A DNA stretch of 38,742 bases from Eledone cirrhosa (taxonomy: Eukaryota), in NCBI GenBank assembly GCA_964016885.1, contig CAXHJY010001124.1, positions 1 to 38,742 on the forward strand. The letters are read 5' to 3'. Positions 434 through 29,349 of the stretch are shown here, one piece after another. The notes beneath the pieces are model-generated. The model did no database searches. It worked only from the letters and a program-made list of their open reading frames with translations, and was not told the origin of the DNA. Both the position numbers and the translations under genes were made by a program. The stretch's first letter is position 1. Each line of letters starts with the position of its first letter.

Positions 434-1027
434 GAACCAGAGAGCCAAAATCAGAGTATACAAAGGAGCCACGGAGAAATATAAGACCCTCATAGAAATG
501 GACATGAAAGGAATTTTCACATTATACAGGAGCAAATCATGGAATAGCTTAGATAGGACTAAACATAAGATAGGGAAAGCCACTTCATGGTACGACAACC
601 AGAGATACCAGAGTGTCATGTTCGTGGATGCTACCCCTGGAGGGAAATTAGTTAACCAATGTAGAAAGGCCCTAAGAAATACCCATTTAAAGATTAAAGT
701 GGTAGAAAAGCCAGGAACTACCATAAAATCCCTGATCAGCAAAACATACCCCTTTAAGAAAGCCCACTGTACTAAAAGAAATGTGTTATATGTAAAATGA
801 ACCCCCAGATAAACTGTAAAACTAGAAATGTAGTCTATAGCATAAGATGTATAGAGGGTACTTGCAGAAACATGACAACGACATACATAGGTGAGACAGC
901 TCGAAGCATAGGAGAAAGAATAGACCAAGATTGGGGGGGGGGGGGGGGGGGGCTAAAAGGACAACAACAAAAACGGTTCAGTACTGTACGAACACGCCAG
1001 ACAAAGACATGACGGTAATATAGACAA
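434..1027 (+). pseudogene. Penelope-like retroelement ORF fragment (RT C-terminal/thumb region, Cys-rich linker, GIY-YIG endonuclease), frameshifted and truncated
   Basis: ORF 498-800 (open upstream to ~435) reads GIFTLYRSKSW...SVMFVDATPGGKL...IKVVEKPGTTIKSLISKTYPF..C. A frameshift leads into 797-930, CKTRNVVYSIRCIEGTC...YIGETARSIGERI, a GIY-YIG NVVY..C..C..YIGET.R motif. After a 20-G run (933-952), SVLYEHARQRHDG supplies the two His of the CCHH motif. The fragment starts right after a (TA)n tract. Confidence 0.85.
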
Positions 1028-4358: not shown

Positions 4359-4538
4359 TATATATTTATATCAAGGGCGGTGCCCCAGCATGGCCTCAGC
4401 CGGATGGCTGAAACAGGTAAAAGAGTAAAAGAGTATATATTTAAAGGTTCAATGAATATATATTTCAAGGTTCAATGAATAAATCAAAGAGTTAGTTTTA
4501 CAATAGATTGGAATGTCTAATTTTGTTAATATTTTGAA

Positions 4539-4608
<70 letters not shown>

Positions 4609-4633: not shown

Positions 4634-4693
4634 TTCCATTTACCAGTGGTTTCTTAAAAGCAAAAGATTTTGCTTTCAATCCTCAGAATGAAA
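4634..4693 (-). ncRNA. Type I hammerhead ribozyme, family B, canonical core
   Basis: Minus strand reads tttcatt-CTGAGGA-ttgaaagcaaa(atct)tttgcttttaa-GAAA-ccactgg-TA-aatggaa. Helix I has 7 bp and helix II 11 bp; helix III ACCACTGGT is near-palindromic, with a GUA cleavage triplet. A distal helix I extension pairs 4612-4619 with 4705-4712. Confidence 0.85.
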
Positions 4694-5615: not shown

Positions 5616-6320
5616 TAGTGTAGCGCTGCATTGCACTGAACTTGAGGTATAAATAAGTGCTAATTTGTATGTGTGCGCGTGAGGGTGTGTACATGCATAT
5701 GTATGTATGTATGTAAGTGTAAACGCATATGAAAGAAATCAGTGCATTACACAAGTTAGCTCAACGGTTGTGCGTGCAATAAGGAGAATTAGTTGATGAT
5801 GTCATCATAGCAAACAACCAATGATATACATTAACAGTTGTGGTCACTCGTGACGTCAAAACATTGAATGGCATATGAGGGTAGAGGGTAGAGGAAGGTA
5901 AGATGATAGGATCAGAAACACATGTAAGTAGGAAAGAAAGATGAGAAACAGATAAGCATAACGGGAGGGTGTTAGAATAACGAAGAAAGAGAGAAGGTAT
6001 GAGAAATGGCAGTAAGGATTACATAAAATTATGTTAGCGTCAACCATGTTAGATTGGTAAAGGGAACGAAGAAGGTTAAAGCAAGCCAATCCTTAGTTAG
6101 CTTAACTACTTTATGGGATGGGTGTATGTGTTTGTTTGAGCTGGTGTGTTTATGATATGTATTTATGCACAGAAACATACGTGTGTGGATATGTGTGCGC
6201 GCGCACGCACACACACAGACACACACACATATATATATATATATGACTATCCAGGAAGCTCCAACCGTTAAGGTTGTCTTTTTTCCGGGTATGTCAATAT
6301 TTATTTATAAAACAAATCTG

Positions 6321-6386
6321 TATTTTATCTGATGAAAGCGCACCATAATTTGCCTTGGTTACCCTTGAAATATATATAATAAAATA
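6321..6386 (+). ncRNA. Type I minimal hammerhead ribozyme, family A, canonical core
   Basis: Reads tattttat-CTGATGA(6329-6335)-aagcgcacca...tggttaccctt-GAAA(6367-6370)-tatata-TA-ataaaata. Helix I has 8 bp, helix III is the palindrome ATATATAT, and helix II is partly decayed. The host element 6246-6425 is homologous to 2605-2794 (minus). Confidence 0.78.
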
Positions 6387-6490
6387 AATATGGTTTTATA
6401 AATATAGTTTCCATTTATTAATATATTGTATATATATATATATATATATATGTAAATATTAATTTCAAAAACTTATATTTATCTGAAAAA

Positions 6491-6644: not shown

Positions 6645-6649
<5 letters not shown>

Positions 6650-6760
6650 AACAAGTAAGACCCCGACGGCTGAGCTCAAGCCGTTTCGACGGCTAATTCT
6701 GTCTAGAATTAGCCGTCGAAACGGCTTGAGCTCAGCCGTCGGGGTCTTACTTGTTCCTAT
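6645..6760. repeat. Perfect palindrome with 56-bp arms and a 4-nt loop, containing the 3' half of a hammerhead
   Basis: 6645-6700 is the exact reverse complement of 6705-6760 (loop gtct). The right arm reads agaattagccgtc-GAAA-cggct(tgagctc)agccg-TC-ggggtc. Confidence 0.95.

Positions 6761-7148: not shown

Positions 7149-7190
<42 letters not shown>
6838..7190. repeat. Compound (TA)n microsatellite with repeated ttccat(a) interruptions
   Basis: (TA)n blocks are separated by ttccat(aa) six times, plus one inverted ttatggaata at ~7102. Confidence 0.95.
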
Positions 7191-7194
<4 letters not shown>

Positions 7195-7330
7195 GGAAAA
7201 AAAATGAAAGAAATTTTATTTCTCACTCTTAGCACGGCTGTTACTTAAATATAAGTATGTACACGTACATTATATATATATATACATACATACACATATG
7301 GGTATATATAGATATAGATTGACAATCCAC
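7191..7330 (+). mobile_element. Partial copy of the 10318-11166 hammerhead-bearing element (lacks the ribozyme)
   Basis: ggaaaaaaaatgaaagaaattttatttctcactcttagcacggctgttacttaaat aligns with ggaaaaaatgaaacgaaacttcacttctcactcctagcacggctgatacttaaat at 10322. Confidence 0.75.
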
Positions 7331-9483: not shown

Positions 9484-9889
9484 ACATGGTTGGCTGTACA
9501 ATAAGGGCTTTATTTAAAGTACTGGCAATTGTTTCGTTGATCATGTGGGTCTAGAGTTCGCTAATCGCTTGATGTTGCGTTATTCGATCTCCAATACATT
9601 ATTCACCTCTGGTCAACACATCAGAGCACGTAGATATGAAAATAATTCACTCGAGGCAAGACTTATATAAAGAAATAGCGTATAATTAAAATAATAACAT
9701 CAATAATAAAATAGCATATAATATAAACAATAACATCAATAATAATACATGATGTGTTGGCCATAGGTGAATAATGTATTGGAGATCGAATAACGCAATA
9801 TGAAGCGATTAGCGAACTCTAGACACACATGATCAACGAAACAATTGTCAGTACTTTAAATAAAGCCCTTATTGTACAGCCAACCATGT
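9484..9889. repeat. 140-bp inverted repeat (9484-9623 / 9750-9889) within a TA-flanked element; each arm holds a long-helix-II hammerhead motif (family D)
   Basis: The arms are near-identical reverse complements. The minus arm reads gtgct-CTGATGT-gttgacca...tgatcaac-GAAA-caattg-CC-agtac. The plus arm reads TGATGT-gttggcca...tgatcaac-GAAA-caattg-TC-agtac. Confidence 0.85.
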
Positions 9890-10186
9890 ATAACCTGCAT
9901 AACAATTACCGCGAACTCGCTGCATAACTATGGAAGCATCTTGTTGAGTCAATCAAAGCCGTACGTTAAAACTATCCACGACGCAGAGCACTCACAACCT
10001 CTAACTGGATTACCTATAGCGATAACTTATTATCCCAAATATATATATATATGTATATATTTAAAGGTTAAACAAGGTTCAATGAATAAATCAATGAATA
10101 AAGTTTTACAATAGGTTAGAAGCACTCCACAAAAATGGTTTTCCGGAGTTATTAATATTAATTCAAAATATTAACAAAAAATTTTT

Positions 10187-10249
10187 TTTTATCTGATGAG
10201 GACGTACTGTTGAAGATAGCTCAGTACCTCTGAAATATGTATAATAAAA
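10187..10249 (+). ncRNA. Type I minimal hammerhead ribozyme, family A-related, canonical core
   Basis: Reads ttttat-CTGATGA(10193-10199)-ggacgtactg(ttgaagatagct)cagtacctct-GAAA-tatgta-TA-ataaaa. Helix II has 9 of 10 pairs. The motif is enclosed by a 24-bp inverted repeat, atattaattcaaaatattaacaaa / tttgttaatattttgaattaatat. Confidence 0.85.
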
Positions 10250-10584
10250 TATACATGATCACACGAATGTCTATATTTGTTAATATTTTGAATTAATATA
10301 TATATATATATATATATAAATGGAAAAAATGAAACGAAACTTCACTTCTCACTCCTAGCACGGCTGATACTTAAATGTAAGCACGTATACGTACATACAT
10401 ATATGTATACAGACGTATAGTAGTATGTATATATACATACATGTATATATATACATACATATGTACGTATGGGTCCACCGAACATTCACCACAATGCTCG
10501 GTTTGTTTATAAACAAACAGCCCGAATTAAGCCGTACAGTGTTTAGCAACCATCGTTGCCCTTTTGTTCAACACTGACAAAAGA

Positions 10585-10627
10585 ACGATGTACTAGTTTC
10601 AAGCTTATTAGCTATCGTCAGCACCGT
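10585..10627 (-). ncRNA. Type I minimal hammerhead ribozyme, family E
   Basis: Exact reverse complement of the 10914-10956 motif. Confidence 0.88.
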
Positions 10628-10913
10628 ATACCTTTCTGCCAGATGATTGAACGTCTGAAAGTATATACTTTCCTTATGCATATTAACGGCTGAGCAGCCT
10701 AATTTGCATATCGAGTGAGTTAGTCAGCCGGGCGCACCGAAAACGATAAATAGAAAAAATGAAACGAAACCTCACTTCTCACTCCTAGCACGGCTGATAC
10801 TTAAATGTAAGCACGTATACGTACATACATATATGTATACAGACGTACAGTAGTATGTATATATATACATACATGCACACATATATATATATGTACGTAT
10901 GGCAGAAAGGTAT

Positions 10914-10956
10914 ACGGTGCTGACGATAGCTAATAAGCTTGAAACTAGTACATCGT
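10914..10956 (+). ncRNA. Type I minimal hammerhead ribozyme, family E
   Basis: Reads acggtg-CTGACGA-tagct(aata)agctt-GAAA-ctag-TA-catcgt. Helix I has 6 bp plus a distal extension (ggcagaa / ttttgtc), and helix III is the palindrome ACTAGT. The GUA site predicts cleavage after A10950. Confidence 0.88.
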
Positions 10957-12227
10957 TCTTTTGTCAGTGTTGAACAAAAGGGCAACGATGGTTGCTAAAC
11001 ACTGTACGGCTTAATTCGGGCTGTTTGTTTACAAACAAACCGAGCATTATGGTGAATGTTCGGTGGACCCATACGTACATATATATATATATGTGTGCAT
11101 GTATGTATATATACATACTACTGTACGTCTGTATACATATATGTATGTGCGTATACGTGCTTACATACATATATATCCTTCTTCTCTGGAAGAAATCAGC
11201 TGTGTTCAGACCTGAATAGGGGATGGACTTTGCCAGGTTTAAAAGACATGCTGTATGTTATGAGGGCGCCCCGACGACTTCATCGGGCGTTTCAGGTCCA
11301 TACATACATATGTCCTTGGTTGAGCAGGTCTATGATCAAATGCGTTCTAGCCATGACCATCATGTTTATTATTATTATCTAGGATTACCTTTTCTAATGT
11401 GTCCTGACTTTTTAAAAGAGGATCGGGAGGATATGATTTGAGAGAGATCTGGTTACTGTTTCTTGCAGATCTTCTGGTACTTATCATCAGAGTTGATAGG
11501 TACCAGTCAAATACTAGAGGCAATTAAAACAACTATATCACCCTCCAAAATGTATATAGCTTTGCTCCAAGATTAATAAAATCATCATTTGGTTCAAGTT
11601 CTACTCTGATTGGACAGACTTATGATCAAAAGCATTCCTATCTTTCTTCAGGGATATCTAAGAATACATTATCCAGTGATAGTGAATTTCCGAGTTTGAT
11701 TCTATTGTGTATCATCTTGGATCTTGTGAACTGGGTGGGTAGAAAACAGTGTGGAAGCTCGCCGGGAAGGCTGTATCAGTAATTCATAGGCCCAGCCTTA
11801 TCATATACCGTGTCACAGCTACTCATAAATTAATTTAATAAGTAGTTAGTTCAGCTGAACGCCCAACTGGAACACTCGTCGTTGAAATTGACGAAAGATC
11901 CATCCTTTAATGTGTCCTTTACTTTGTCAATAGGGAGATTTAGCTACTATTTCTATCAAGTCGGGTAACGACGTCCAAGATTCCTTGTTGGTTGATTATT
12001 ATTGGGTTAAATGAGGGTAGTAGGTTGGCATAGTCGTTAGACTGTTGGACAAATGAGTAGCGGTATTTACGTTCGAAGTTCAAATTCCGCCTCTGTTAAC
12101 TTTGCCTTTCCTCTTCCCAAGGTCGATAAATAAAGTATCAGTAAAGAACCGAGGTCGATATATTCGAATTTACCCTTCCCAAAATGTCTGGCCTTGTGTC
12201 TATATAAGAAACCATTATTAGGTTAAA

Positions 12228-12416
12228 GGCCGGTGGATTGGCAGTATCGGTAGAGGGTCGGACGCCATGCTTTGTAGCATAGTTACGTCCCTTTACGATC
12301 TGAGTTCAAATCCCGCCGAGGTTAACTTTGCCTTTCATCCTTACGGGGTCGATAAAATAAAGTACCAGTAATGCACTGGGTAATTGCTGGCCTTGTGCCT
12401 AAAGTAGAAACAATTA
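12228..12416 (+). mobile_element. Young full-length tRNA-derived SINE with target-site duplication
   Basis: A-box-like tggcagtatcggtag, B-box gagttcaaatccc, core gcctttcatccttacggggtcgataaaataaagtaccag, tail gccttgtgcctaaagtagaaacaatta. attattaggttaaa(gg) lies on both sides (12214 and 12413). It follows an older copy at ~12020-12215. Confidence 0.85.
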
Positions 12417-12894
12417 TTAGGTTAAAGGAAGAAGATGCTTCTCTATAACCTTTGTAGACTCTTCAGAACTGTAGATAGTCGTGCAATCGACGTTCTGTTT
12501 GAACCTCTGCATGCTAATGCTTATAAAGAAAACGTGGGTAAAATAAAAATCCAGTGGGATGCACTTCTGGTGTGGAAAGATTAAAGGAAGTGCATATAGT
12601 ATAGAATATGAAGAGGAGATACAACAGAGATGAGTTCGTCATGAGGTCACAGCGCATACATGGTAATTCAAGGAGGCAGGAACTCAAGTAGTAGTAGTTG
12701 ACGGAGGAGGAGGGAGAGAGAAAGAAAGAGGAAGCGAATGTGAGGGAGAGGAGAAAACAGATACATCACAATGATTGTAGTGTGTACGATCTAGAATGTT
12801 TATGTGCAGGCCAGAACAGTAAGAGGGGCAAGTATGCCAGTTGGCATAGGCCTACAATTTTTAGGGGCCCTATATCCCTAGATCTTCAGTTCTG

Positions 12895-14022: not shown

Positions 14023-14126
14023 GACCACAGCCGTTACTCGCAATCGAGTATGCCTTGTTAGTAAGTATCACGCCTTCTTTAAGCGTCTTTTGTGCCCTTG
14101 CAGACACTTTCTTGGCCATCCCTCCC

Positions 14127-15582
14127 TTGATCCAGTGAAACATCTACGGTGTGGCAGCTTGAAGGAGTGAGGACTACATCTGCACTGGGCTAGGTCTTTC
14201 TTTATCGGCTTCGAAGGTTGATCCAGTGAAAGATCTACGGTGTGGCAGCTTGAAGGAGTGAGGACTACATCTGCACTGGGCTAGGTCTTTCTTTATCGGC
14301 TTCGAAGGTTGATCCAGTGAAAGATCTACGGTGTGGCAGCTTGAAGGAGTGAGGACTACATCTGCACTGGGCTAGGTCTTTCTTTATCGGCTTCGAAGGT
14401 TGATCCAGTGAAAGATCTACGGTGTGGCAGCTTGAAGGAGTGAGGACTACATCAGCACTGGGCTAGGTCTTTCTTTATCGGCTTCGAAGGTTGATCCAGT
14501 GAAAGATCTACGGTGTGGCAGCTTGAAGGAGTGAGGACTACATCAGCACTGGGCTAGGTCTTTCTTTATCGGCTTCGAAGGTTGATCCAGTGAAAGATCT
14601 ACGGTGTGGCAGCTTGAAGGAGTGAGGACTACATCAGCACTGGGCTAGGTCTTTCTTTATCGGCTTCGAAGGTTGATCCAGTGAAAGATCTACGGTGTGG
14701 CAGCTTGAAGGAGTGAGGACTACATCAGCACTGGGCTAGGTCTTTCTTTATCGGCTTCGAAGGTTGATCCAGTGAAAGATCTACGGTGTGGCAGCTTGAA
14801 GGAGTGAGGACTACATCTGCACTGGGCTAGGTCTTTCTTTATCGGCTTCGAAGGTTGATCCAGTGAAAGATCTACGGTGTGGCAGCTTGAAGGAGTGAGG
14901 ACTACATCAGCACTGGGCTAGGTCTTTCTTTATCGGCTTCGAAGGTTGATCCAGTGAAAGATCTACGGTGTGGCAGCTTGAAGGAGTGAGGACTACATCA
15001 GCACTGGGCTAGGTCTTTCTTTATCGGCTTCGAAGGTTGATCCAGTGAAAGATCTACGGTGTGGCAGCTTGAAGGAGTGAGGACTACATCTGCACTGGGC
15101 GAGGTCTTTCTTTATCGGCTTCGAAGGTTGATCCAGTGAAAGATCTACGGTGTGGCAGCTTGAAGGAGTGAGGACTACATCAGCACTGGGCTAGGTCTTT
15201 CTTTATCGGCTTCGAAGGTTGATCCAGTGAAAGATCTACGGTGTGGCAGCTTGAAGGAGTGAGGACTACATCAGCACTGGGCTAGGTCTTTCTTTATCGG
15301 CTTCGAAGGTTGATCCAGTGAAAGATCTACGGTGTGGCAGCTTGAAGGAGTGAGGACTACATCAGCACTGGGCTAGGTCTTTCTTTATCGGCTTCGAAGG
15401 TTGATCCAGTGAAAGATCTACGGTGTGGCAGCTTGAAGGAGTGAGGACTACATCTGCACTGGGCGAGGTCTTTCTTTATCGGCTTCGAAGGTTGATCCAG
15501 TGAAAGATCTACGGTGTGGCAGCTTGAAGGAGTGAGGACTACATCTGCACTGGGCGAGGTCTTTCTTTATCGGCTTCGAAGG
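14127..15582. repeat. 91-bp tandem repeat, 16 near-identical copies
   Basis: Unit gatccagtgaaagatctacggtgtggcagcttgaaggagtgaggactacatc(t/a)gcactgggc(t/g)aggtctttctttatcggcttcgaaggtt starts at 14129+91n (n=0-15). Confidence 0.98.
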
Positions 15583-15655
15583 GATGAAAAGCAACATGAA
15601 CCTAGGTGGGATTTGAACTCATAACGCATTGACCTGCAACAAATATCCAACGTAA

Positions 15656-15836
15656 TAACTGTTTCTACTTTTGGCACAAGGCCAGCAATTACCCAGTGCA
15701 TTACTGGTACTTTATTTTATCGACCCCGTAAGGATGAAAGGCAAAGTTAACCTCGGCGGGATTTGAACTCAGATCATAAAGGGACGTAACTCTATGCTTC
15801 AAAGCATGGTGTCCGACTCTCTACCGATACTGCCAA
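15656..15836 (-). mobile_element. Young SINE copy, near full length
   Basis: Reverse complement of 12238-12415 with few differences. Confidence 0.88.
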
Positions 15837-17570: not shown

Positions 17571-18390
17571 GCTCTGACTTGTGCTAACAACACGATATAA
17601 TTTTCTCAATATCAACTTCTGCTGACATTCTTACTCGACTACACCAAGAAAAATGTTTCGCCTGATTAGAATATCCTCCATCTTGCCAATAAATTTCATT
17701 TCTGCAACTTCAGTTTAAATAAAGTACTTTTTCTTTTTATTTCCTTCGGTTACCACTGTACTGTACTACTTTAACTTTCCATTTCTAATTCATATCAATT
17801 TAAATTTCTCATAAATCTACAAATATCTTCTTTAGTGTGTAGTGGTGAGAGGAGCCCCACCCTAATGTACATATTAATTAATATCGGCCTGTCTACTTGG
17901 CAACTTCTCTCTCAAACATATCTTCGCTCCGCGTTAATAGTACATGTATGGACACGGCTTTCTTTTAAACACAGGAAATACTTTGTGCTCTATAAACTCA
18001 AGATTAAATATAGTTCTCTAGTATTGTGGATTCTGTGGTTAGAAGGGTAAAAAAATAAAATAAATAAAAACGTAATGTACCGGCTGATTAGGACTGGGGT
18101 GGCTTCCTCTTGCCACATCAAGGTCTTTGGTGTGTATGTTGGACGACGGATGTTCTAGATACTTGATCAACGGAACAGCCTGGTTGTGAAATTAATTTCA
18201 TAGGCATGTACAGCTTTAACGCAATCTGAATTTTCTGTATATAAGCGTCATTCACATACAACATACCTCAATCCTGTACTACCTCCATAAACATAGATCT
18301 CCACCTTCTTCAATGAGCGTCATGACAATCCAGTTTCTTTCAACATCACTGCTCATAAATTAAGAAAATTATTTTGTATTTCAACAGGCA

Positions 18391-19558
18391 AAATGTAGGC
18401 CACTGAAGCTCGTAATAGACGCAGGCCAGATGTGAAAGTAGACCTTAGGCCAAATGTAGGCCACTGAAGCTCGTAATAGGCGCAGGCCAGATGTGAAAGT
18501 AGACCTTAGGCCAGATGTAGGCCACTGAAGCTCGTAATAGGCGCAGGCCAGATGTGAAAGTAGACCTTAGGCCAAATGTAGGCCACTGAAGCTCGTAATA
18601 GACGCACGCCAGATGTGAAAGTAGACCTTAGGCCAAATGTAAGCCACTGAAGCTCGTAATAGACTCAGGCCAGATGTGAAAGTAAACCTTAGGCCAGATG
18701 TGAAAGTAGACCTTAGGCCAGATGTAGGCCACTGAAGCTCGTAATAGACGCAGGCCAGATGTGAAAGTAGACCTTAGGCCAGATGTAGGCCACTGAAGCT
18801 CGTAATAGACGCAGGCTAGATGTGAAAGTAGACCTTAGGCCAAATGTAAGCCACTGAAGCTCGTAATAGACTCAGGCCAGATGTGAAAGTAAACCTTAGG
18901 CCAGATGTGAAAGTAGACCTTAGGCCAGATGTAGGCCACTGAAGCTCGTAATAGACGCAGGCCAGATGTGAAAGTAGACCTTAGGCCAGATGTAGGCCAC
19001 TGAAGCTCGTAATAGACGCAGGCTAGATGTGAAAGTAGACCTTAGGCCAGATGTAGGCCACTGAAGCTCGTAATAGACGCAGGCTAGATGTGAAAGTAGA
19101 CCTTAGGCCAGATGTAGGCCACTGAAGCTCGTAATAGGCGCAGGCCAGATGTGAAAGTAGACCTTAGGCCAAATGTAGGCCACTGAAGCTCGTAATAGAC
19201 GCAGGCCAGATGTGAAAGTAGACCTTAGGCCAAATGTAGGCCACTGAAGCTCGTAATAGGCGCAGGCCAGATGTGAAAGTAGACCTTAGGCCAAATGTAG
19301 GCCACTGAAGCTCGTAATAGACTCAGGCCAGATGTGAAAGTAAACCTTAGGCCAGATGTGAAAGTAGACCTTAGGCCAGATGTAGGCCACTGAAGCTCGT
19401 AATAGACGCAGGCCAGATGTGAAAGTATACCTTAGGCCACTGAAGCTCGTAATAGACGCAGGCCAGATGTGAAAGTATACCTTAGGCCAAATGTAGGCCA
19501 CTGAAGCTCGTAATAGACGCAGGCCAGATGTGAAAGTAGACCTTATTTCAAACTGCTC
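18391..19558. repeat. 61-bp tandem repeat, ~18 copies with three 24-bp internal duplications
   Basis: Unit a(a/g)atgtaggccactgaagctcgtaatagacgcaggccagatgtgaaagtagaccttaggcc. The array ends in ttatttcaaactgctc. Confidence 0.97.
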
Positions 19559-21555: not shown

Positions 21556-24500
21556 ATGGATATTAAAAAAAAACAAAAAACGTTAAAGCCTGTCCCAAGA
21601 CCAGAATCTCGTCAGGCCAAGCTTATTTCACTGGCGTTTCGCTAAGCGAATAAGAGAGTACACACTTCCTTCTATACAGAGTTAAGTCCCTCTTGCAGTT
21701 GCTACTCATTCTTTGCCAGCTGAGTAGACTGGAACAACGTGAAATAAAGTATGTAACCCAAAGACACAGTGTACCTCAGGCTGTCCGCCTTCATTGATGG
21801 ATATTGGTATCGGGTATATCTATGGTACTGGATACAAATTCCGTTTTTGTAGAGATGACAGGAGAGAGATGAATATCTTTTAAATATCAAGACCAGAACG
21901 ATGATCAAATACATTCTTGTGACCATCCCGTTCTCAGGAAGAGGGTAGTGGTGGGTTTAGTGTCCCAGACACCATTATCAAATCACAACTTACTGTCTTT
22001 TAGCGTTTTGATACCAACCTACTCAAAACACGCTCTGGTTTTAAGAAACGAAATTATTTATTTTAAAAGGTTCCTATTTAATTTATAACCTTCCAACATA
22101 ATTTGATATGAAACTTTTGTTATATTACAAATACCATCTTAATAATGGTTTCTAATTTAGGCACAAGGTCAGCAATTCTGAAGGAGAACAGCCACACCAA
22201 TCGTAGCACTTTGAAGAACGAAAGTGCAAATTCTACCTAAGCGAGATTCAAACTCAAAACGGGAAGAACCGGAACACGTACTACAAAGCATTTTGTCGGA
22301 CGCTCTAAAATTTCTGTCAATATTCAGTAACTCCAACCAAATTCTTAATTGAAATACGGTGTATTTCATTAGGAATATAGCGAAGAAAGAGTTAAGGCGG
22401 TCGCGTGTGATTTAAGGAAGATTTCACTGCTATTTCTCAGTTCAAGCCACCACACAGGCAATCTTCTTGACGTTTTATTTTTATTAGTAGTCAATACTAA
22501 GGTTGACGCGGACTCAAGTCGATGACAACAAACTGAAATGACAACAACCCACGCTAACCTACTTTTAGTTACAATAATGTTCCCGTTAACTTACGTTATT
22601 ATATCACAACATATGTTCACTGGAGGGCAGGTTAAGCGAGTTATTTTCCACTAAACTATTGTGTAGAAGTGGCACTGACTACTTTAAATCTTTGTACTAT
22701 GAACAACTACTACGCCTAAATATTTCAAGTTGATTCTCCGCAGCGTGTAGTGTACATAGATTAAAAAAAAAAAACTTCATATTTGACGGCAGACCTCAAC
22801 AAGCTTTTTATAATCGCCATATAAATAGGCCTCCGTCAGTTTCGACGAGGTTTGTCCTAGTTGTTCGATCGACGGAACAGCCTGCAAGTGAAGTTAACGT
22901 AAATGGCTTAGCATTCCATAGACACGTGTACTTTCAACGTAATTCTCAGGGAGACTCACTGTGACAAGACTGGCCCTTTGATTTTCAAAGTATAGCCCAT
23001 CCGACGGGTTTCCAAACAGTTTATCAATTAATTTTACTCAGAAGGTGTGGGTTGACCCGACGTCAAGTAAATGCCACACAGTGGGATCGAACCCCTGGAC
23101 CTAAAGATTGTAGAACGAACTTAACTATTTGGCCATGCTGTTTCCATGTAATCGTTATAACTAAACATGTGAATGGCATTGACCACAGATTTAATTGTGT
23201 AAAAAAAAAAAAATCTTTAAAAATAGATTAGAACAATTGTATCGATTTCTTTATATTGCAGACTTCGAGTTTCTGAGAAATGAAATGAAAAGAGCACTAA
23301 CATACCCACATCATTTGATTAACTATTGTTTCCCACAATATACTTATTCAAACTACACGTAACCCTTCCATGGCCATATTTCTAATGCAATATCCATGTG
23401 TTTCAATGAATTTTGGAAATAATCAAGGATTTCAAAATAAGTAAAAATGAAGGAAAGCTGGTGTTTGGAATATGATTTAATAAAATGTTCTTACACAAAA
23501 TTATATCGATTTTAAATAAGAACATTTAAAATTAGAGGCGGTTTCAGGCGGGTTTGCAATATTTTCGCTCATTCCTTTGTTACAAATATTACTCTCGTTA
23601 TATATAACATATATATATAATTTTCAATCATATTTTATTATTTGTTTGACCCGAATAGCTTGTTCTCTTATATGGCTTTGCAGTTAATGGTTTAACCATC
23701 GTCTCAGTGTGTTTGGCCTTTTAACGTATGTTGTTGCTCTAGTTCACTCGTTTCTATGGAGCGCTTGCCACACATCTCGGAAGTTGTTTTTCGTTAATTT
23801 CCAATAGCCGAAATGCGATTCTCGCTAATTTATATATATAATGGAAATACAGAATCCTAGTTTAATATATATATTTGTAGTTCAATAACATTTTATATAT
23901 ACTTTTACGGGTTTCAGTCATTTTGACTGCAGCCATACTGGGGCACGGCCTTAGAAGTTTTATTTTTTAATATCAAACCTGGTACCTATTGTATCGAACT
24001 AAGTTACTATATATACACACACACACACATATTTCCGCACAGTTTTCGCCTTCCAAATTTCACTCACAAGGCATTGGTCAACTGAAGGCTGTAGAGGACA
24101 TGTGCTAATGGCTATTCACGGAGTGAATGAAGTTGATATAACCACAAATCAAATCACGGCCGCAGACTCGATTCCCAAAGACTTTTCCTAATCTGTATTG
24201 CTCACCTCCAGATCAAAAATATGATAAAATTTGCTATATGGATGTTGACAACGACGTATCATTCAGGTTCAGCATTTTAAAGTTCATTTAGATAGAGGAA
24301 AAATTATCATTAGACTTCAAATGGACCCAACGACATCGTTATATAAATGACGGAGGCTCTTAACTAAAGTAAAATTATAAACGTGACGTGAACTTGGCAC
24401 CCTTTTAAACTTGATTATCTACCAATTGCTTTACTATATTTTGTTGAAAAGATCTTCGATAATATTTGGTTTCTTTACATTATGTTTTAGGCTAATGGAA

Positions 24501-25849
24501 CAATATAATTTGCTTGATAAAATTCCTGAAGGATTGTAGGAGGAATTTCCTTTTTCATCTTTTATTTAACACAGTAGAATGTCAGTTATTGAAGCTTGGG
24601 GTTTAAGTATAGAGTAAACCCATTTATACACTCAAAAATAGAACTGCTTTAAATAAAACTCATGATGCAATAAATAAACATGAATAAATAGAAAGAAAGG
24701 AATTAATTCAAATGTTTTTATTATAAAGTCATCGTTTAAAACAATATTTTTTTTACATAGAAAAATAAAAAAAAACTGTAATCGTTTAAAAATAAGAAAC
24801 ATAGCAAGAGTATTTTGGATATTTATATCATTGATCAATTATTTATACTTTTTAACAATGTAACTGTTGGAACAAGGTCAAACAATTGATTTGGAAAAAA
24901 AGTGAATGGATACTACAGATATCGATCTTAAACAACGACAGATTTTCTTGAAACATGTTCACTTGTTGGTAGTGTGAGGTCGGCAATTTCCTTCAATGAT
25001 GGTGGCGTAGGTTCGGCGAGCTCCGTTGACTGTGGTGTTACTCAGCTAGCTCTATACCTTTGCCACTGATAGTCAAGATCACTCAGTGACTGGGGTATAG
25101 GGCAGTTGATAAAAACACCCGTTACAGGAACAATATCTTCAAGCAAAGATAGCAAGACTTATAAGCGAGACAAGAGTCAAATGAAAACGGGTTCATGATC
25201 CAGTATCGAAACAAGGTTCTGTTTCGAACCCAGTCGTCCTCTTAAAACAGAAAAGTAAGAAATTTATTTTGCTTCATTGCATTAAGCAAGCTATCACGCA
25301 CAGAGTGTGTGTATGTTGGGTTGAGAACACCGGGTGATTGTAATTAAGGATGGTTCACAGTAGTTGTCCTATGGTTGAGTTACTGAGTTGCTTGGAAGAC
25401 AAGTGGCGCCAACCCTACGCACTCAAACCATAATAACTTCAATATTTTTTATCGGTGTTGTCCTAGATTTGAGATCACATCTGTTATTTTTACACCAGGA
25501 TACGTATGAGATATTAAGGATTGTATGTAAAGGATATGTTGCTAAGTCACATTGTATACAGTCTAACCTCAAACTTTTAAGACAAAATTACATAAGATTT
25601 CTTTATCACCCATGCATATTACAAAACATTTTTTATACACTAAAGCGACATTTGAACAATAAATTACTATTCACCGGTTCGATCTCCGGTAATCAAATAT
25701 ATTCCTGGAGATATTTTTTCTACAATCTACCCAGCAGTGTTAAATGCTCAATCAGTTAATGTTTGAAATACTATATTTTAAACACACATTCTAACATATA
25801 TCACTGTTTAGTCACGAAGGAAAGAGTAGTTCCCTTGACCCTTTTCAGA

Positions 25850-26220
25850 GCTTCCGAGATTGGTGGTAGAAAGGAAGATGCTCTCAAATCGTAGAACTAG
25901 TTTGAATGCCTCCTCTGGTGGGACTCCGCGAAATGCACTCAACAACCAGATGGAGGTGTTAAAACGAGAACAAAGGGGACTCAGTTAAAGGAACCAAACG
26001 ACTAGATGGTGCTCGTCGAGAGAGAGAGTAATAGAGATGTAAACATTATCAACTGTTTAATGTCCTGAAAACTGGCAGAAAGTTCCAGAAACTTGTGACA
26101 GCTTCTACCTTGTACAGAGAATAGAAAGATGAGAGGTGAGGCGGAGTGGTTTAGGCATTCTCAGGGCTCTTTCTTGTGCATCAAATTGTTGTTGATGCTG
26201 CATTCCAAAACGTTAGTATA
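25850..26220 (-). mobile_element. Possible decayed LINE (RTE-like) ORF fragment
   Basis: Only weak resemblance, across frameshifts, to the EN-RT linker of RTE elements. A PPSLKEI-like stretch lies further along the minus strand at ~24985-25005. Confidence 0.25.
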
Positions 26221-26852
26221 AACAAATAAAAATAAAATAAACTGCACATTCAATTATGTCTTTCAATAGCATGTTCGTGTGTATATGTGTGTGCCTTTCA
26301 ATAGTTGAAATTACGGAACCACTCCCAAGAGTTAAAGTTAGTAGGGTGATGTTTGAAAGTTAATGTCAAATGACATAGGCAGCGACGGGGGTGAAATAGT
26401 GAATGAGAGAATTTGGAGAGAGAGACCCATTATGGCGGAGTAGAGTAATCACGTTATTATATATTTTGAGATTCAAGTTTCTTAAAATTTAAAAATAAAA
26501 AATGAGCTCGAATCGGTGATGGAAATTTAATAATCCACTAGTTGGACACACAAAGTTGCCAGATCAATTTCATTAAAAGTAGCACAAAATGTTCAAAAAG
26601 TAGTGACTCGTGTTAGTATGTGTGGTTGGTTCACATTTCATCATTGTCATCGTTCGAATGCATTAGCAGATGGCCACAATCAGCTGTGATTTGAATCTCT
26701 AGGCAGAATTGAACTCAAGACGCAAATACATAAAGTATCAACTCAGGGCAGTGAATTACTTATTCCAAAAGGATGAACGATAGATGACCTCGGAGCGCAG
26801 ATTGTCGGAACAAATACCACGAGTTATTTCTATCCGACACTCTTACGACTAA

Positions 26853-27357
26853 TCTCTATATATAAAACTGAGGTTGTCTGTCTACTAAAACGGTCGGCAT
26901 ACATCTCCTACTAAATCGTACGTCCAAATTTCGGTGAAATTGCTACACTTATAGATGAAGGTCCGGCGGAATTATCGGTCAAACAAATTTTCAAATGGAC
27001 CACCGCCAAGTGCAAAAATCGAATTTGTAATGTATTGATTTTTTTCAAAATAACTGATAGTTTGGTTACGCTGATGTTTTTCTCTGAGACGAGTGTTGCA
27101 GTGTTTACATTTTCGATTTTTGTTAATAGATTGATTACCAGTGCAGATTTTATCACCAGCATCCTCTTTTGTTTTAACATTCGGGTTATGGTTATGTTTT
27201 CTTAACTTCATACTGTTGGTTGAGGGAATATTAATCAAAAGTACCACATGAAAGTCTACACTGTAGACTACAGTTTTTAAGCCAAGAAAGGGACTTAACA
27301 TTGTAACTTTAACACAGCTACTGAGCAGCCCCGAGCAACGCCGGGCTTTACTGCTCG
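26853..27357 (+). mobile_element. Non-autonomous Helitron (same family as 3058-3981)
   Basis: The 5' end is A^TCtctatatataaaactgaggttgtctgtct. The 3' hairpin gccccgagcaacgccgggc is followed by CTCG^T (decayed CTAG), in an AT target site with no TSD. Confidence 0.72.
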
Positions 27358-29349
27358 TATATATATAAACAAAGAGGACAAGACAACGGGCGAAAAAACG
27401 ATATATATATATATATATATACATATATGACCGAGTGGTTAAGGGGTTCGCTTCGCAACCACGGGGTTCTGGGTTCAATTCTACTACAGCCTAGTGTTAA
27501 CTAATGCTTTATAAGTGGGATTTGGTAAGCAAGAAGCCCGTCGTGGTGTTTACGTCTTGTAATTTAGAGGGTTTATAAAAAGAGGTCGTTAAAGTACTGA
27601 AGTCAATATGATCGACTAAATCAAGACAATGCCCCAGGATGGTTGCAGTCTGACTGAAACCAATAAAAGAATACAAAAATAAAGAGGTAATGAAACATAC
27701 TACCCATCCTACGATATCTACATTCATCATCTTTACATTTTCAATTAATATAATCAAACAAGAGCAGTAGCTTGTTATATTTTATTAACTGAAAATTTTT
27801 TTTTGGGGGGGGGGGACAAAGGACAAAATATACTAATTAATAGTTTTTCGGAAAACTGTCACCTAAATGTTTAAATGTTCATTTGCTTCATTTCAAATGT
27901 AAATATTTTATCAAATTTACAGTGGGGTGGCTGTTGATGGAATATACGAATAATCACTAAAAAGGGAACGATAGAATAAAAAATTTGGAAAACCTCAGGT
28001 TTAGGCTTTATTGAAACAGTATTAATGATAGGTGGTAAATTTATGGGTATAAAAATAACATTTACTGGTGGGGCGAATTCATATATATAGTATAGTCGTA
28101 TTCATTATATCTTGTTTGACTGGTACTCAGCGAAACTCAAGGGCCAGTCAACCAAAATGCACTACATATCTTACAAATAAATTCCCTGCTTTTGCATCGA
28201 TCGTGCAGAACAGAATAGAATAAACGCATTAAGGAGTACATAGATTCACATTAAATATTCCTGTACAAATACCGTTTACATCCACAAAGCATATTCAATG
28301 TTATACTTTTAAGTGCAGTCACATGCATTGTATTGTGTGACATTTGTGTCGTTTATTCAGCGTTGTGCACTTTGCTTTATCTTATCAATATATCTCTTTC
28401 ACACATTTATTTTGTTTCGTTTATATTGGTTTATTTTCTTGTCGGAAACCATTTTTTTAAAATATATAATTATTAATTTAGTGTCAGTATTTACCGCCAA
28501 AATGCGTCGTTCCCATTGGCCAATAATATGATGACGTTTAACCGTTCTGAGTAATGCCAGGGTTCTTGTTTCTTTGTCGCAAATCTTGCGTGCTTCGAAT
28601 GACTAATACTAAGTAATTTCTTTGCCACAGGGGAACCGAGGAGTAAAAAAAGAACTGGAAAAGGGAGTGTTCATTCAATTTCATATAAAATCATAAAATA
28701 TAGTTTATATAAAAATGTAAATAGATACGAAATAAAATATATTTTTAATCATAAGGAAGCAGCAGGGCCGTATTAAGTAGTTTGTTTCATAAACATAGTT
28801 TGGGGTTTAGGTGCATTGCACGGTAACTTAGGCGAGTGTGTACTATGGGCTCAAGGTGACCACTACCTTGTGAGAAAAACTGGTTAATGGAAATTGTGTG
28901 GAAACCTGTCATGTGTGTGTGTGTTTACGATTTGTTCATATGTTATGTAACTTAGCAACTCCACAAACAGGTCGATAAATAAGTATCAGATATGAAAAAA
29001 AGAATCGAAGTCAATATTTGACCAAATCCCTTTAATATATTGCCCCAGCATGACCGTAGTCTAATGACTGAAACCAGTAAAAATTATAAGAGAAAGATGA
29101 AAGAATATATAAATATATCACCACACAGGGTGGATAAGGACACACCGAAACAGAACTGTTTTCAAGCAATATCAAATATTTGCTCCCTCGTTCCCGTCTG
29201 CAACTACTGATAGTACGAGTATTTCGCCCACGTCAAACATCATTCACGAACACCTTTCATAAAACCTCACCCCAAAGAAAAACCAATCCCTCTGTCTCCC
29301 TCCCTCTTTCTTTACGTGATAGTGGAACACCATGATGTAATAATACTAA

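What the first reader, a model, noticed from the sequence alone, without database searches (positions are those of the whole stretch)
10318..11166. Young element with Penelope-type direct-plus-inverted architecture and two identical 43-nt hammerheads on opposite strands
Seen: a 430-bp unit is followed by a 155-bp restart and then a 267-bp inverted copy, joined at a short tgg microhomology (~10900-10902). Both hammerheads are intact (CUGACGA, GAAA, GUA, helix III ACUAGU) but have a U-U first pair in helix II. Known: partial tandem and inverted pLTR copies are characteristic of PLE insertions. Inference: the 430-nt period may be the monomer length of a self-cleaved or circular RNA intermediate. 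A read-through transcript would instead fold into a long dsRNA.
Basis: partly seen in the sequence, partly recalled or inferred. Interest (0 to 1): 0.8.

Follow-up and report, generated by a model that had tools for sequence, protein, structure and literature searches.

The report
Hammerhead repeat copied from edited dimer
This is one young copy of a very abundant non-coding repeat that carries a conserved self-cutting-RNA (hammerhead) motif and sits as two back-to-back arms in the way Penelope-type jumping genes insert, and the differences between its three part-copies suggest that it was likely copied from an RNA holding two differently edited units rather than from a one-unit circle.

Summary
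Observation confirmed: a 430-bp unit, a 157-bp restart, a 267-bp inverted arm, a TGG junction and two identical 43-nt type I hammerheads. The ribozyme strand is the minus strand. The repeat is a high-copy family (7,227 contigs laid in one run; 24,000-29,000 reads in each of three DNA runs). Its hammerhead varies only at position 7, loop 2 and one covarying helix I pair among the rows shown. The U-U in helix II is family-wide and known from axolotl. The tandem junction and head-to-head inversions occur in other copies. It works like a non-LTR retrozyme inserted by Penelope-type machinery; no partner was found. New here: restart and inverted arm share at least five alleles that the full unit lacks. 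Nine of 11 differences are A/G on the ribozyme strand, and each unit has G's the other lacks. The locus has one sense hammerhead per arm, so it cannot release a 430-nt monomer itself. Expression and cleavage are untested. Earlier notes of this scan report such two-armed, edited retrozymes on other DNA of this genome.

The parts
10297..10318 (.). (TA)n tract at the left end of the insertion (target; overlaps the element end by ATA)
10316..10745 (-). Unit A, one full 430-nt monomer; first lap of the left arm; RNA sense is the minus strand, 3' end at 10316
10746..10902 (-). Restart A2, 3' 157 nt of a second monomer (unit B), 5'-truncated before its hammerhead
   Evidence: junction 10745|10746 also in other copies
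10900..11166 (+). Inverted right arm, 267 nt, equivalent to 10375-10641, carrying unit B alleles
10900..10902 (.). TGG microhomology at the head-to-head junction
10585..10627 (-). Type I hammerhead in unit A, predicted cut between 10591 and 10590
   Evidence: family variation
10914..10956 (+). Identical hammerhead in the inverted arm, predicted cut after A10950
10574..10642 (-). Hammerhead with predicted extended helix I beyond an internal loop
   Evidence: folds
10676..10709 (-). Second well-covered block: imperfect hairpin with an octamer (ATGCAAAT on the RNA-sense strand, 10709-10702); candidate promoter element, untested
   Evidence: depth peak; only such octamer in the window; no allele of 5% or more shown inside it in run X1
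10385..10470 (-). Internal TA/CA-rich self-complementary tract; holds 7 of the 9 differences between A and the inverted arm
10316..10374 (-). 59-nt offset between the outer ends of the two arms; candidate Penelope-type tail
   Evidence: left end repeated at 7189; right end not shown to be fixed
10340..10359 (-). Cluster of A-to-G changes on the RNA-sense strand relative to the family (4 in A; 5 at the matching 10770-10789 in A2)
   Evidence: paralog at 7189 has the family letter at 4 of the 5 sites
10475..10492 (-). Second cluster of six A-to-G changes relative to a loose-end consensus of 23 contigs
   Evidence: (table 7)
11167..11176 (.). Short TA run at the right flank; no target-site duplication can be read in the microsatellite
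7189..7314 (-). Older, 5'-truncated copy of the same family ending at the same site in (TA)n

Best explanation
The locus is one young, two-armed insertion of an abundant non-coding 430-nt hammerhead repeat, likely pasted in by a borrowed Penelope-type reverse transcriptase/endonuclease that probably copied an A-to-I-edited RNA holding at least two units. Shown: the layout, the conserved ribozyme motif, the high copy number, head-to-head joints in other copies, and the two allele sets. Inferred steps: (1) a tandem source locus is transcribed into a multimer whose units are edited independently; (2) the endonuclease cuts a (TA)n tract and both DNA ends prime reverse transcription; (3) the left end starts at the fixed site (10316) of the downstream unit A and copies 587 nt into unit B; (4) the right end starts 59 nt further upstream in unit B and copies 267 nt; (5) both arms pass a hammerhead cut site without a scar, so the template was uncut there (an uncleaved linear multimer or a circle of two or more units); (6) the two 5'-truncated arms are joined at TGG. 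The hammerhead, with a 2-bp palindromic helix III, would cut as a dimer in tandem source copies; this copy has one sense hammerhead per arm and a read-through RNA would bury it in a ~260-bp duplex, so it is likely a dead end. Odds: retrozyme moved by Penelope-type machinery about 0.85; two-unit uncut template about 0.55.
For: Family: 7,227, 3,483, 39 and 9 contigs laid in 4 of 4 runs of four organism labels; 29,175 of 12.47M, 26,999 of 12.79M and 23,835 of 12.65M reads. Ribozyme: of 40 variant rows shown (of 56), those in 10585-10627 are position 7 (C/U), loop 2, and both sides of one helix I pair, read as G.U, U.G or A-U, with matching counts for the two U.G changes in three individuals (6077/5800, 5924/5928, 5131/4734 on one read direction). 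Tandem: about 4,500 reads in X16 run on to 10750-10758 against 5,800 at 10741-10749, and one listed contig (X1 record 8) bridges the junction with 31 or more letters on each side. Inversions: 9 of 11 listed joints are opposite-strand, 4 of the 9 recur in all three individuals. Two units: A2 and the inverted arm differ at 1 of 96 aligned sites plus two 2-nt indels, but share alleles at 10418, 10444, 10446, 10448, 10458 (and 10454 in one alignment) against A. Editing: 9 of 11 differences are T/C on plus (p 0.036); against near-fixed family letters, T>C 5 and A>G 0 (p 0.021), 11 and 0 with the loose-end sites (p 0.0002); 18 of 18 candidate sites have a 5' U or A, 11 of 11 outside the TA tract. 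In print: a Penelope-type enzyme cuts and extends both strands, prefers AT-rich DNA, starts at two internal sites, is predicted to be a dimer and uses mainly uncut RNA (PMC11167929).
Against: One locus and 11 informative sites, 7 of them in a microsatellite-like tract where alignment and mutation are irregular. No difference at all between A and the inverted arm over 10510-10641, so the point where unit A gives way to unit B is not located and a template jump fits equally. Four near-fixed plus-strand G>A differences (10509, 10582, 10726, 10752; C>U on the RNA strand, p 0.036) are not explained by ADAR. Sites 10487-10492 are unpaired in the fold of the left arm, so they need another duplex. The neighbour test is lenient: the background comes from the already changed sequence and 3 neighbours were themselves counted as edited. 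The six loose-end sites rest on 23 contigs that may be a subfamily. 16 variant rows were not shown, and the run tallies did not reconcile between (C>T in X1: 11 against 13 rows seen). Same-read phase of the U.G changes was not shown. No autonomous partner was found, the right end was not shown to be fixed, 59 nt exceeds the usual 30-40-nt tail (PMC8557442), and Rfam did not recognise the hammerhead. Only 1 of 9 Xenopus retrozyme dimers cleaved in vitro (bioRxiv 10.64898/2026.07.22.740005).
Confidence: 0.55

Rival explanations
1. Same element and enzyme, but the template was two cut monomers (or a monomer and a circle): the left arm copied molecule 1 to its cut 5' end at 10590 and jumped to molecule 2, on which the right arm also started.
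For: All A-specific alleles lie in 10316-10509, between the start site and the cut site; none lies beyond it.
Against: No scar at either crossing of the cut site; the right arm also crosses it by 51 nt, which needs a second jump or a circle; in vitro uncut RNA is the main substrate (PMC11167929).
Confidence: 0.2
2. One reading: a single 430-nt circle copied round more than once; the A-specific and B-specific alleles arose later by mutation or gene conversion between the nearby arms.
For: The family sequence is continuous across the unit junction; circles are shown for coral, mussel and axolotl retrozymes (PMC7229834); A and the inverted arm are identical over 132 nt and share rare alleles such as 10582; earlier notes report sister families whose units share all marks.
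Against: Editing is irreversible, so laps of one circle should give nested allele sets; A has G at 10458 and 10492 (and 10454) where B has A, and B has G at 10341, 10418, 10444, 10446, 10448 where A has A. Later mutation would have to place 9 of 9 differences in one half of the arm (p 0.002) with a strand bias.
Confidence: 0.1
3. The repeat is the pseudo-LTR of an autonomous Penelope-like element, and this locus is simply a heavily 5'-truncated copy.
For: Architecture and target match Penelope-like insertions; solo and opposite-strand hammerheads 100-700 bp apart are described for truncated elements (PMC4209133).
Against: In the family the sequence runs from the unit end back into the unit start, not into an ORF; in run X1 the share of laid contigs running on into unlike sequence rounds to 0; no coding frame in the unit.
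Confidence: 0.08
4. An older monomer was duplicated and folded back at the DNA level (replication template switch), and the differences are ordinary mutation and slippage.
For: Microhomology at the junction; most differences sit in a slippage-prone tract; all are transitions.
Against: The restart junction is shared with thousands of reads from other copies, inverted joints with varying breakpoints occur at other loci, the left end recurs at 7189, and the changes are strand-biased also outside the tract.
Confidence: 0.07

Closest known systems
Metazoan non-LTR retrozymes (Cervera and de la Pena 2020, PMC7229834: passages and sections 14-17 read; Li, Clavereau, Pollet 2026, bioRxiv 10.64898/2026.07.22.740005: parts 1-3 of 5 read, supplements not seen)
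   Same: Non-coding, low-GC (38.6%), highly self-paired (70% in the circular fold) unit with a type I hammerhead and weak palindromic helix III; unit length within the 51-972 bp range of the preprint; axolotl HHR_Amex2 also has U.U at the base of helix II and cuts 22% in an hour as a monomer, better as a dimer; Penelope-like elements are the proposed movers.
   Different: This locus has 1.37 units and fails the preprint's test of two consecutive hammerhead units. It has an inverted second arm and a (TA)n end; the word 'inverted' does not occur in PMC7229834. Its allele pattern points to a two-unit template, whereas the published model has a monomer circle as template. Expression and circles are untested here.
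EN+ Penelope-like element insertions (Craig et al. 2021, PMC8557442: 12 of 14 passages; Arkhipova et al. 2013, PMC3846280: 10 passages; Cervera and de la Pena 2014, PMC4209133: parts 1-2 of 4)
   Same: Partial tandem plus adjacent inverted 5'-truncated copy, head-to-head junction with microhomology, (TA)n target, different outer ends, hammerhead in the repeat.
   Different: No RT or endonuclease ORF; the end offset is 59 nt against 30-40; the hammerhead has a 4-bp helix II on U.U rather than the long helix II with G10.1-C11.1 of minimal Penelope hammerheads; Naiads, which target (TA)n, lack hammerheads.
PAc Poseidon element in vitro (Frangieh et al. 2024, PMC11167929: parts 1-2 of 4)
   Same: Both strands cut and extended, AT-rich targets, two internal start sites, hammerhead cleavage not needed, predicted dimer.
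   Different: Autonomous element; both start sites were mapped on one template copy, whereas here the two arms appear to start on different units.

Membership tests
Non-LTR retrozyme | Type I hammerhead with full core and helices I-III | tested here: met
   conservation and helix I covariation. Rfam gave no match.
Non-LTR retrozyme | Short non-coding, low-GC unit without ORF | tested here: met
   430 nt, 38.6% GC; no stop-to-stop frame of 100 aa within the unit; one 108-aa frame (11056-11382) runs from the TA tract into the flank
Non-LTR retrozyme | Head-to-tail tandem units in the family | tested here: met
   Unit end-to-start junction continues in thousands of reads and one listed contig with 31 or more letters each side; array lengths not measured
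Non-LTR retrozyme | Two consecutive hammerhead-bearing units at the locus ('active' by Li et al. 2026) | tested here: not met
   One sense hammerhead per arm
Non-LTR retrozyme | Dispersed, high copy number | tested here: met
   (no copy number can be given from these data)
Non-LTR retrozyme | Transcribed, self-cleaved and circularised | not testable with these tools
   No RNA run was available to lay
Penelope-like element insertion | Partial tandem with adjacent inverted 5'-truncated copy | tested here: met
   inverted joints in other copies
Penelope-like element insertion | AT-rich or (TA)n target | tested here: met
   2 of 2 copies in the window end in (TA)n at the same site
Penelope-like element insertion | Tail: two fixed 3' ends 30-40 nt apart | tested here: inconclusive
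   59-nt offset at this locus; left end recurs once; right end seen once
Penelope-like element insertion | Target-site duplication (optional) | tested here: inconclusive
   Both flanks are TA repeats
Autonomous Penelope-like element | ORF with RT and GIY-YIG endonuclease | tested here: not met
Non-autonomous derivative of a Penelope-like element | Sequence homology to the pseudo-LTR of an autonomous partner | not testable with these tools
   No whole genome held
Viroid-like RNA with ribozymes in both polarities | A ribozyme on each strand of the unit | tested here: not met
   The unit has one hammerhead; the second is its inverted DNA copy

The most novel reading that the evidence does not exclude
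Inherited DNA here records A-to-I editing of a retrozyme transcript, and the record shows that the two arms of a Penelope-type insertion were started on two different units of one multimeric RNA, as a dimeric reverse transcriptase gripping two units would do; multimers, not the abundant monomer circles, would then be a real transposition substrate of retrozymes.
Probability: 0.35. Interest if true: 0.72.

Novelty: new variant of a known kind. Interest (0 to 1): 0.52.

Why it matters
How animal retrozymes get back into the genome is proposed but not shown in the papers read: PMC7229834 proposes reverse transcription of monomer circles by Penelope-like elements, and the 2026 preprint adds phylogenetic support while saying the mechanism is open. 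A non-coding hammerhead repeat with the Penelope insertion layout ties the two together physically. Editing marks that differ between units act as barcodes for the RNA molecules that were copied, so a genome-wide count over young copies could tell monomer circle, multimer and template jump apart without any bench work. It would also show RNA edits becoming heritable sequence. The parts themselves (retrozyme, U.U hammerhead, tandem/inverted layout) are each known.

Tried and rejected
No whole genome is held, so no copy census, empty-site search or partner search was possible. Only 10470-10810 and 10570-10810 were laid, so the TA tract and both outer ends were not examined in other copies. Read ends piling up at 10701/10704 and 10769 fall on AATT and are read as restriction ends of the reduced-representation library, which also inflates the 0.19-0.23% read share; rejected as biology and as copy number. 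Rfam: 71 matches in the window and 2 at the hammerhead, all below gathering score, microRNA or snoRNA models on simple repeats; no hammerhead family. Exact hammerhead pattern in metagenome contigs: 0 matches. Earlier findings by sequence: 0 look-alikes twice; near this place: none, so I cannot say whether the 422-nt family of note e1-8665316 is this family. The coding remnant at 435-1020 gave no Pfam match (0 of 2 pieces) and no homolog among 39 longer candidates, so it is not used as a partner. Paper searches: octopus + Penelope + hammerhead (5 papers, 4 listed), octopus + hammerhead ribozyme (5 papers, 4 listed), retrozyme/A-to-I editing/retrotransposition (171 papers with 2 of 3 terms, 20 listed) and ADAR/retrotransposon/cephalopod (3 papers) showed no title or abstract start describing a cephalopod retrozyme or edited retrozyme copies; these were listings only, and the library lacks most subscription papers. 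A search for the snRNA-type promoter of newt satellite 2 (recalled) listed 10 papers, none evidently on it, so the octamer stays a lead. In one search one candidate site was mis-indexed (10474 for 10476); corrected. Rejected: U.U as a private lesion; the two hammerheads as cis dimer partners (they are never sense in the same RNA); a viroid-like two-polarity RNA.

Full report
Observation. Unit A spans 10316-10745 and restarts at 10746, a period of exactly 430. The restart A2 runs to 10902. The inverted arm 10900-11166 matches 10375-10641 at 258 of 267 sites, and the arms overlap by TGG. A descriptor scan finds the same 43-nt type I hammerhead at 10585-10627 (minus) and 10914-10956 (plus); the strict descriptor gives 2 hits in the window and none in 200 of 200 shuffles. 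Rfam does not recognise it. Read on the ribozyme strand, the left arm is 587 nt ending in (TA)n and the right arm is 267 nt ending in a short TA run; the arms meet head to head. A second copy at about 7189-7314 ends at the same site in (TA)n. The host is called an octopus in earlier notes of this scan and its repeats look cephalopod from my recall; I did not test this.

Family. No genome was held, so I used public runs. On 10470-10810, 7,227, 9, 3,483 and 39 contigs were laid in runs X1, X4, X5 and X6, four organism labels. On 10570-10810, 29,175 of 12.47M, 26,999 of 12.79M and 23,835 of 12.65M raw reads were laid in three reduced-representation DNA runs. These figures show a very abundant family but are not copy numbers. 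Depth peaks at the hammerhead and at 10662-10721. Reads continue across the 10745|10746 junction (about 5,800 at 10741-10749 and 4,500 at 10750-10758 in X16), and one listed contig bridges it with 31 or more letters on each side; others in X1, X5 and X6 cross it by 6-24 letters. So the restart is a family trait and the unit sequence closes on itself. Nine of 11 listed joints change strand, at varied breakpoints, and 4 of the 9 recur in all three individuals, so head-to-head inversions occur at other loci too.

Ribozyme. Among the 40 variant rows shown of 56, those inside the hammerhead are position 7 (CUGACGA/CUGAUGA), one loop 2 base, and both sides of the third pair of helix I. That pair reads G.U in the window, A-U in some copies and U.G in others; the two changes needed for U.G have matching counts in three individuals, though same-read phase was not shown. 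No row falls on the other core bases, helix II, helix III or the U.U. By the run's own tally 34 of 35 calls in X1 are among the rows shown, but the tallies did not reconcile for C>T, so this is not proof of invariance. The U.U at the base of helix II is known from axolotl HHR_Amex2, which cuts weakly alone and better as a dimer (PMC7229834 section 15). Helix III has two pairs and a 2-nt loop and is palindromic (self-duplex -6.8 kcal/mol), the dimer type of PMC4209133. This locus has one sense hammerhead per arm, so it cannot give a cut-to-cut monomer, and a read-through RNA of either strand is predicted to form about 260 long-range pairs that include the ribozyme. Cleavage itself is untested; only 1 of 9 Xenopus dimers cut in vitro.

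Two units. A2 and the inverted arm overlap by 98 nt and differ there by 1 substitution and two 2-nt indels. Both differ from A at 10418, 10444, 10446, 10448 and 10458 (10454 too in one alignment). So they come from a second unit, B. Of 11 substitutions between A and B copies, 9 are T/C on plus, that is A/G on the ribozyme strand (p 0.036). Family letters give the direction outside the TA tract: at 10770, 10771, 10775, 10785 and 10789 the family has T almost throughout (99.6% or more of depth in X1; in raw reads about 96% or more at the last three, about 87-97% at 10770 and 55-69% at 10771, where some reads have G) and the window has C; the paralog at 7189 has T at four of these five. A loose-end consensus of 23 contigs adds six more T-to-C sites at 10475-10492. 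T>C against A>G is 5 to 0 (p 0.021), or 11 to 0 with the loose-end sites (p 0.0002); 18 of 18 candidate sites have a 5' U or A, the ADAR preference as I recall it, though that test is lenient. A has G's that B lacks and B has G's that A lacks. Editing cannot be undone, so successive laps of one monomer circle would give nested sets; these are not nested. Against this reading: 7 of the 9 A-versus-arm differences lie in a slippage-prone tract and their direction there is assumed; four plus-strand G>A changes are unexplained; four candidate sites are unpaired in the fold of the left arm; and it is one locus. Leaving out the putative edits, A and the inverted arm differ at 1 of 267 sites, so the insertion is young.

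Mechanism. The layout is that described for Penelope-like insertions: partial tandem, adjacent inverted 5'-truncated copy, optional tail, (TA)n bias (PMC8557442 passages; PMC3846280 passages). In vitro a Poseidon protein cuts and extends both strands, prefers AT-rich DNA, starts at two internal sites that define the tail, is predicted to be a dimer, and uses mainly uncut RNA (PMC11167929). I infer that both ends of a break in (TA)n primed copying: the left from the fixed end of unit A on into unit B, the right from a site 59 nt upstream in unit B, with joining at TGG. Both arms cross a cut site without a scar, which favours an uncut multimer or a circle of two or more units (0.55) over a jump between cut monomers (0.2) or a monomer circle with later change (0.1). 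I first read the right end as chance internal priming; note e1-8665316 (two fixed ends 59 nt apart in a 422-nt family) made me read it as a tail. I confirmed the 59-nt offset here but could not test whether the right end is fixed.

Comparison and novelty. It works like a non-LTR retrozyme and meets the testable family-level features, but this locus fails the two-consecutive-hammerhead test of the 2026 preprint, and expression and circles are untested. It is not an autonomous Penelope-like element, and no partner was found. The published model has monomer circles as templates and names Penelope-like elements as candidates (PMC7229834 section 17). Four paper searches (listings only) showed nothing on cephalopod retrozymes or edited retrozyme copies; supplements of the preprint were not seen and may list inverted copies. 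Earlier notes of this scan describe two-armed, edited retrozymes of 310-522 nt on other pieces of this genome; most favour a single circle, one a circular dimer and one a template jump. They are leads, not support. What this locus adds from my own tests is a conserved, covarying hammerhead and an allele pattern that disfavours a monomer circle for this insertion.

Verdict. Real, and a new variant of a known kind. Interest 0.52; the most novel reading has probability 0.35 and would merit 0.72.

Noticed in passing
window 10155-10299, 6320-6455, 2601-2898, 4511-4567: A second, more degenerate family of short hammerhead-like elements ending in (TA)n: CUGAUGA...GAAA at 10193 and 6329; the copy at 10155 has a 24-nt inverted arm and the one at 2601-2898 has 84-nt arms at 98%. 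The finding's element is inserted in the (TA)n end of the 10155 copy.
   Followed up: partly
window 435-1020 (+): Broken coding remnant with a CxxC-like motif and VVYSIRC...YIGETARS words that resemble the GIY-YIG endonuclease of Penelope-like elements (recalled). No Pfam match, no homolog found. A degenerate hammerhead-like stretch follows at about 1045-1085 (by eye).
   Followed up: partly
window 4641-4686 (-): Hammerhead-like motif (CUGAGGA, 12-bp helix II, 7-bp helix I) near a (TA)n tract.
   Followed up: no
window 9484-9623 and 9750-9889: Inverted repeat of 140 nt, 96% complementary, around a 126-nt AT-rich spacer.
   Followed up: no
window 6645-6760: Near-perfect fold-back of about 56 bp per arm directly after a (TA)n tract (by eye).
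   Followed up: no
window 14036-15700 and 18264-19552: Tandem arrays with 91-bp units (about 99% identical) and 61-bp units.
   Followed up: no
window 13030, 15692, 17429, 20494, 29699, 33864, 35281, 12281-12423: Dispersed SINE-like family in both orientations, 62-100% identical over 77 nt.
   Followed up: no
window 10676-10709: Hairpin with the window's only exact octamer, 112-119 nt upstream of the hammerhead cut; well covered in the family. Recalls the snRNA-type promoter of newt satellite 2 (recalled; not retrieved).
   Followed up: partly
window 10509, 10582, 10726, 10752: Four plus-strand G>A differences from near-fixed family letters (C>U on the RNA strand), with no C>T counterpart; only one is at a CpG.
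   Followed up: partly
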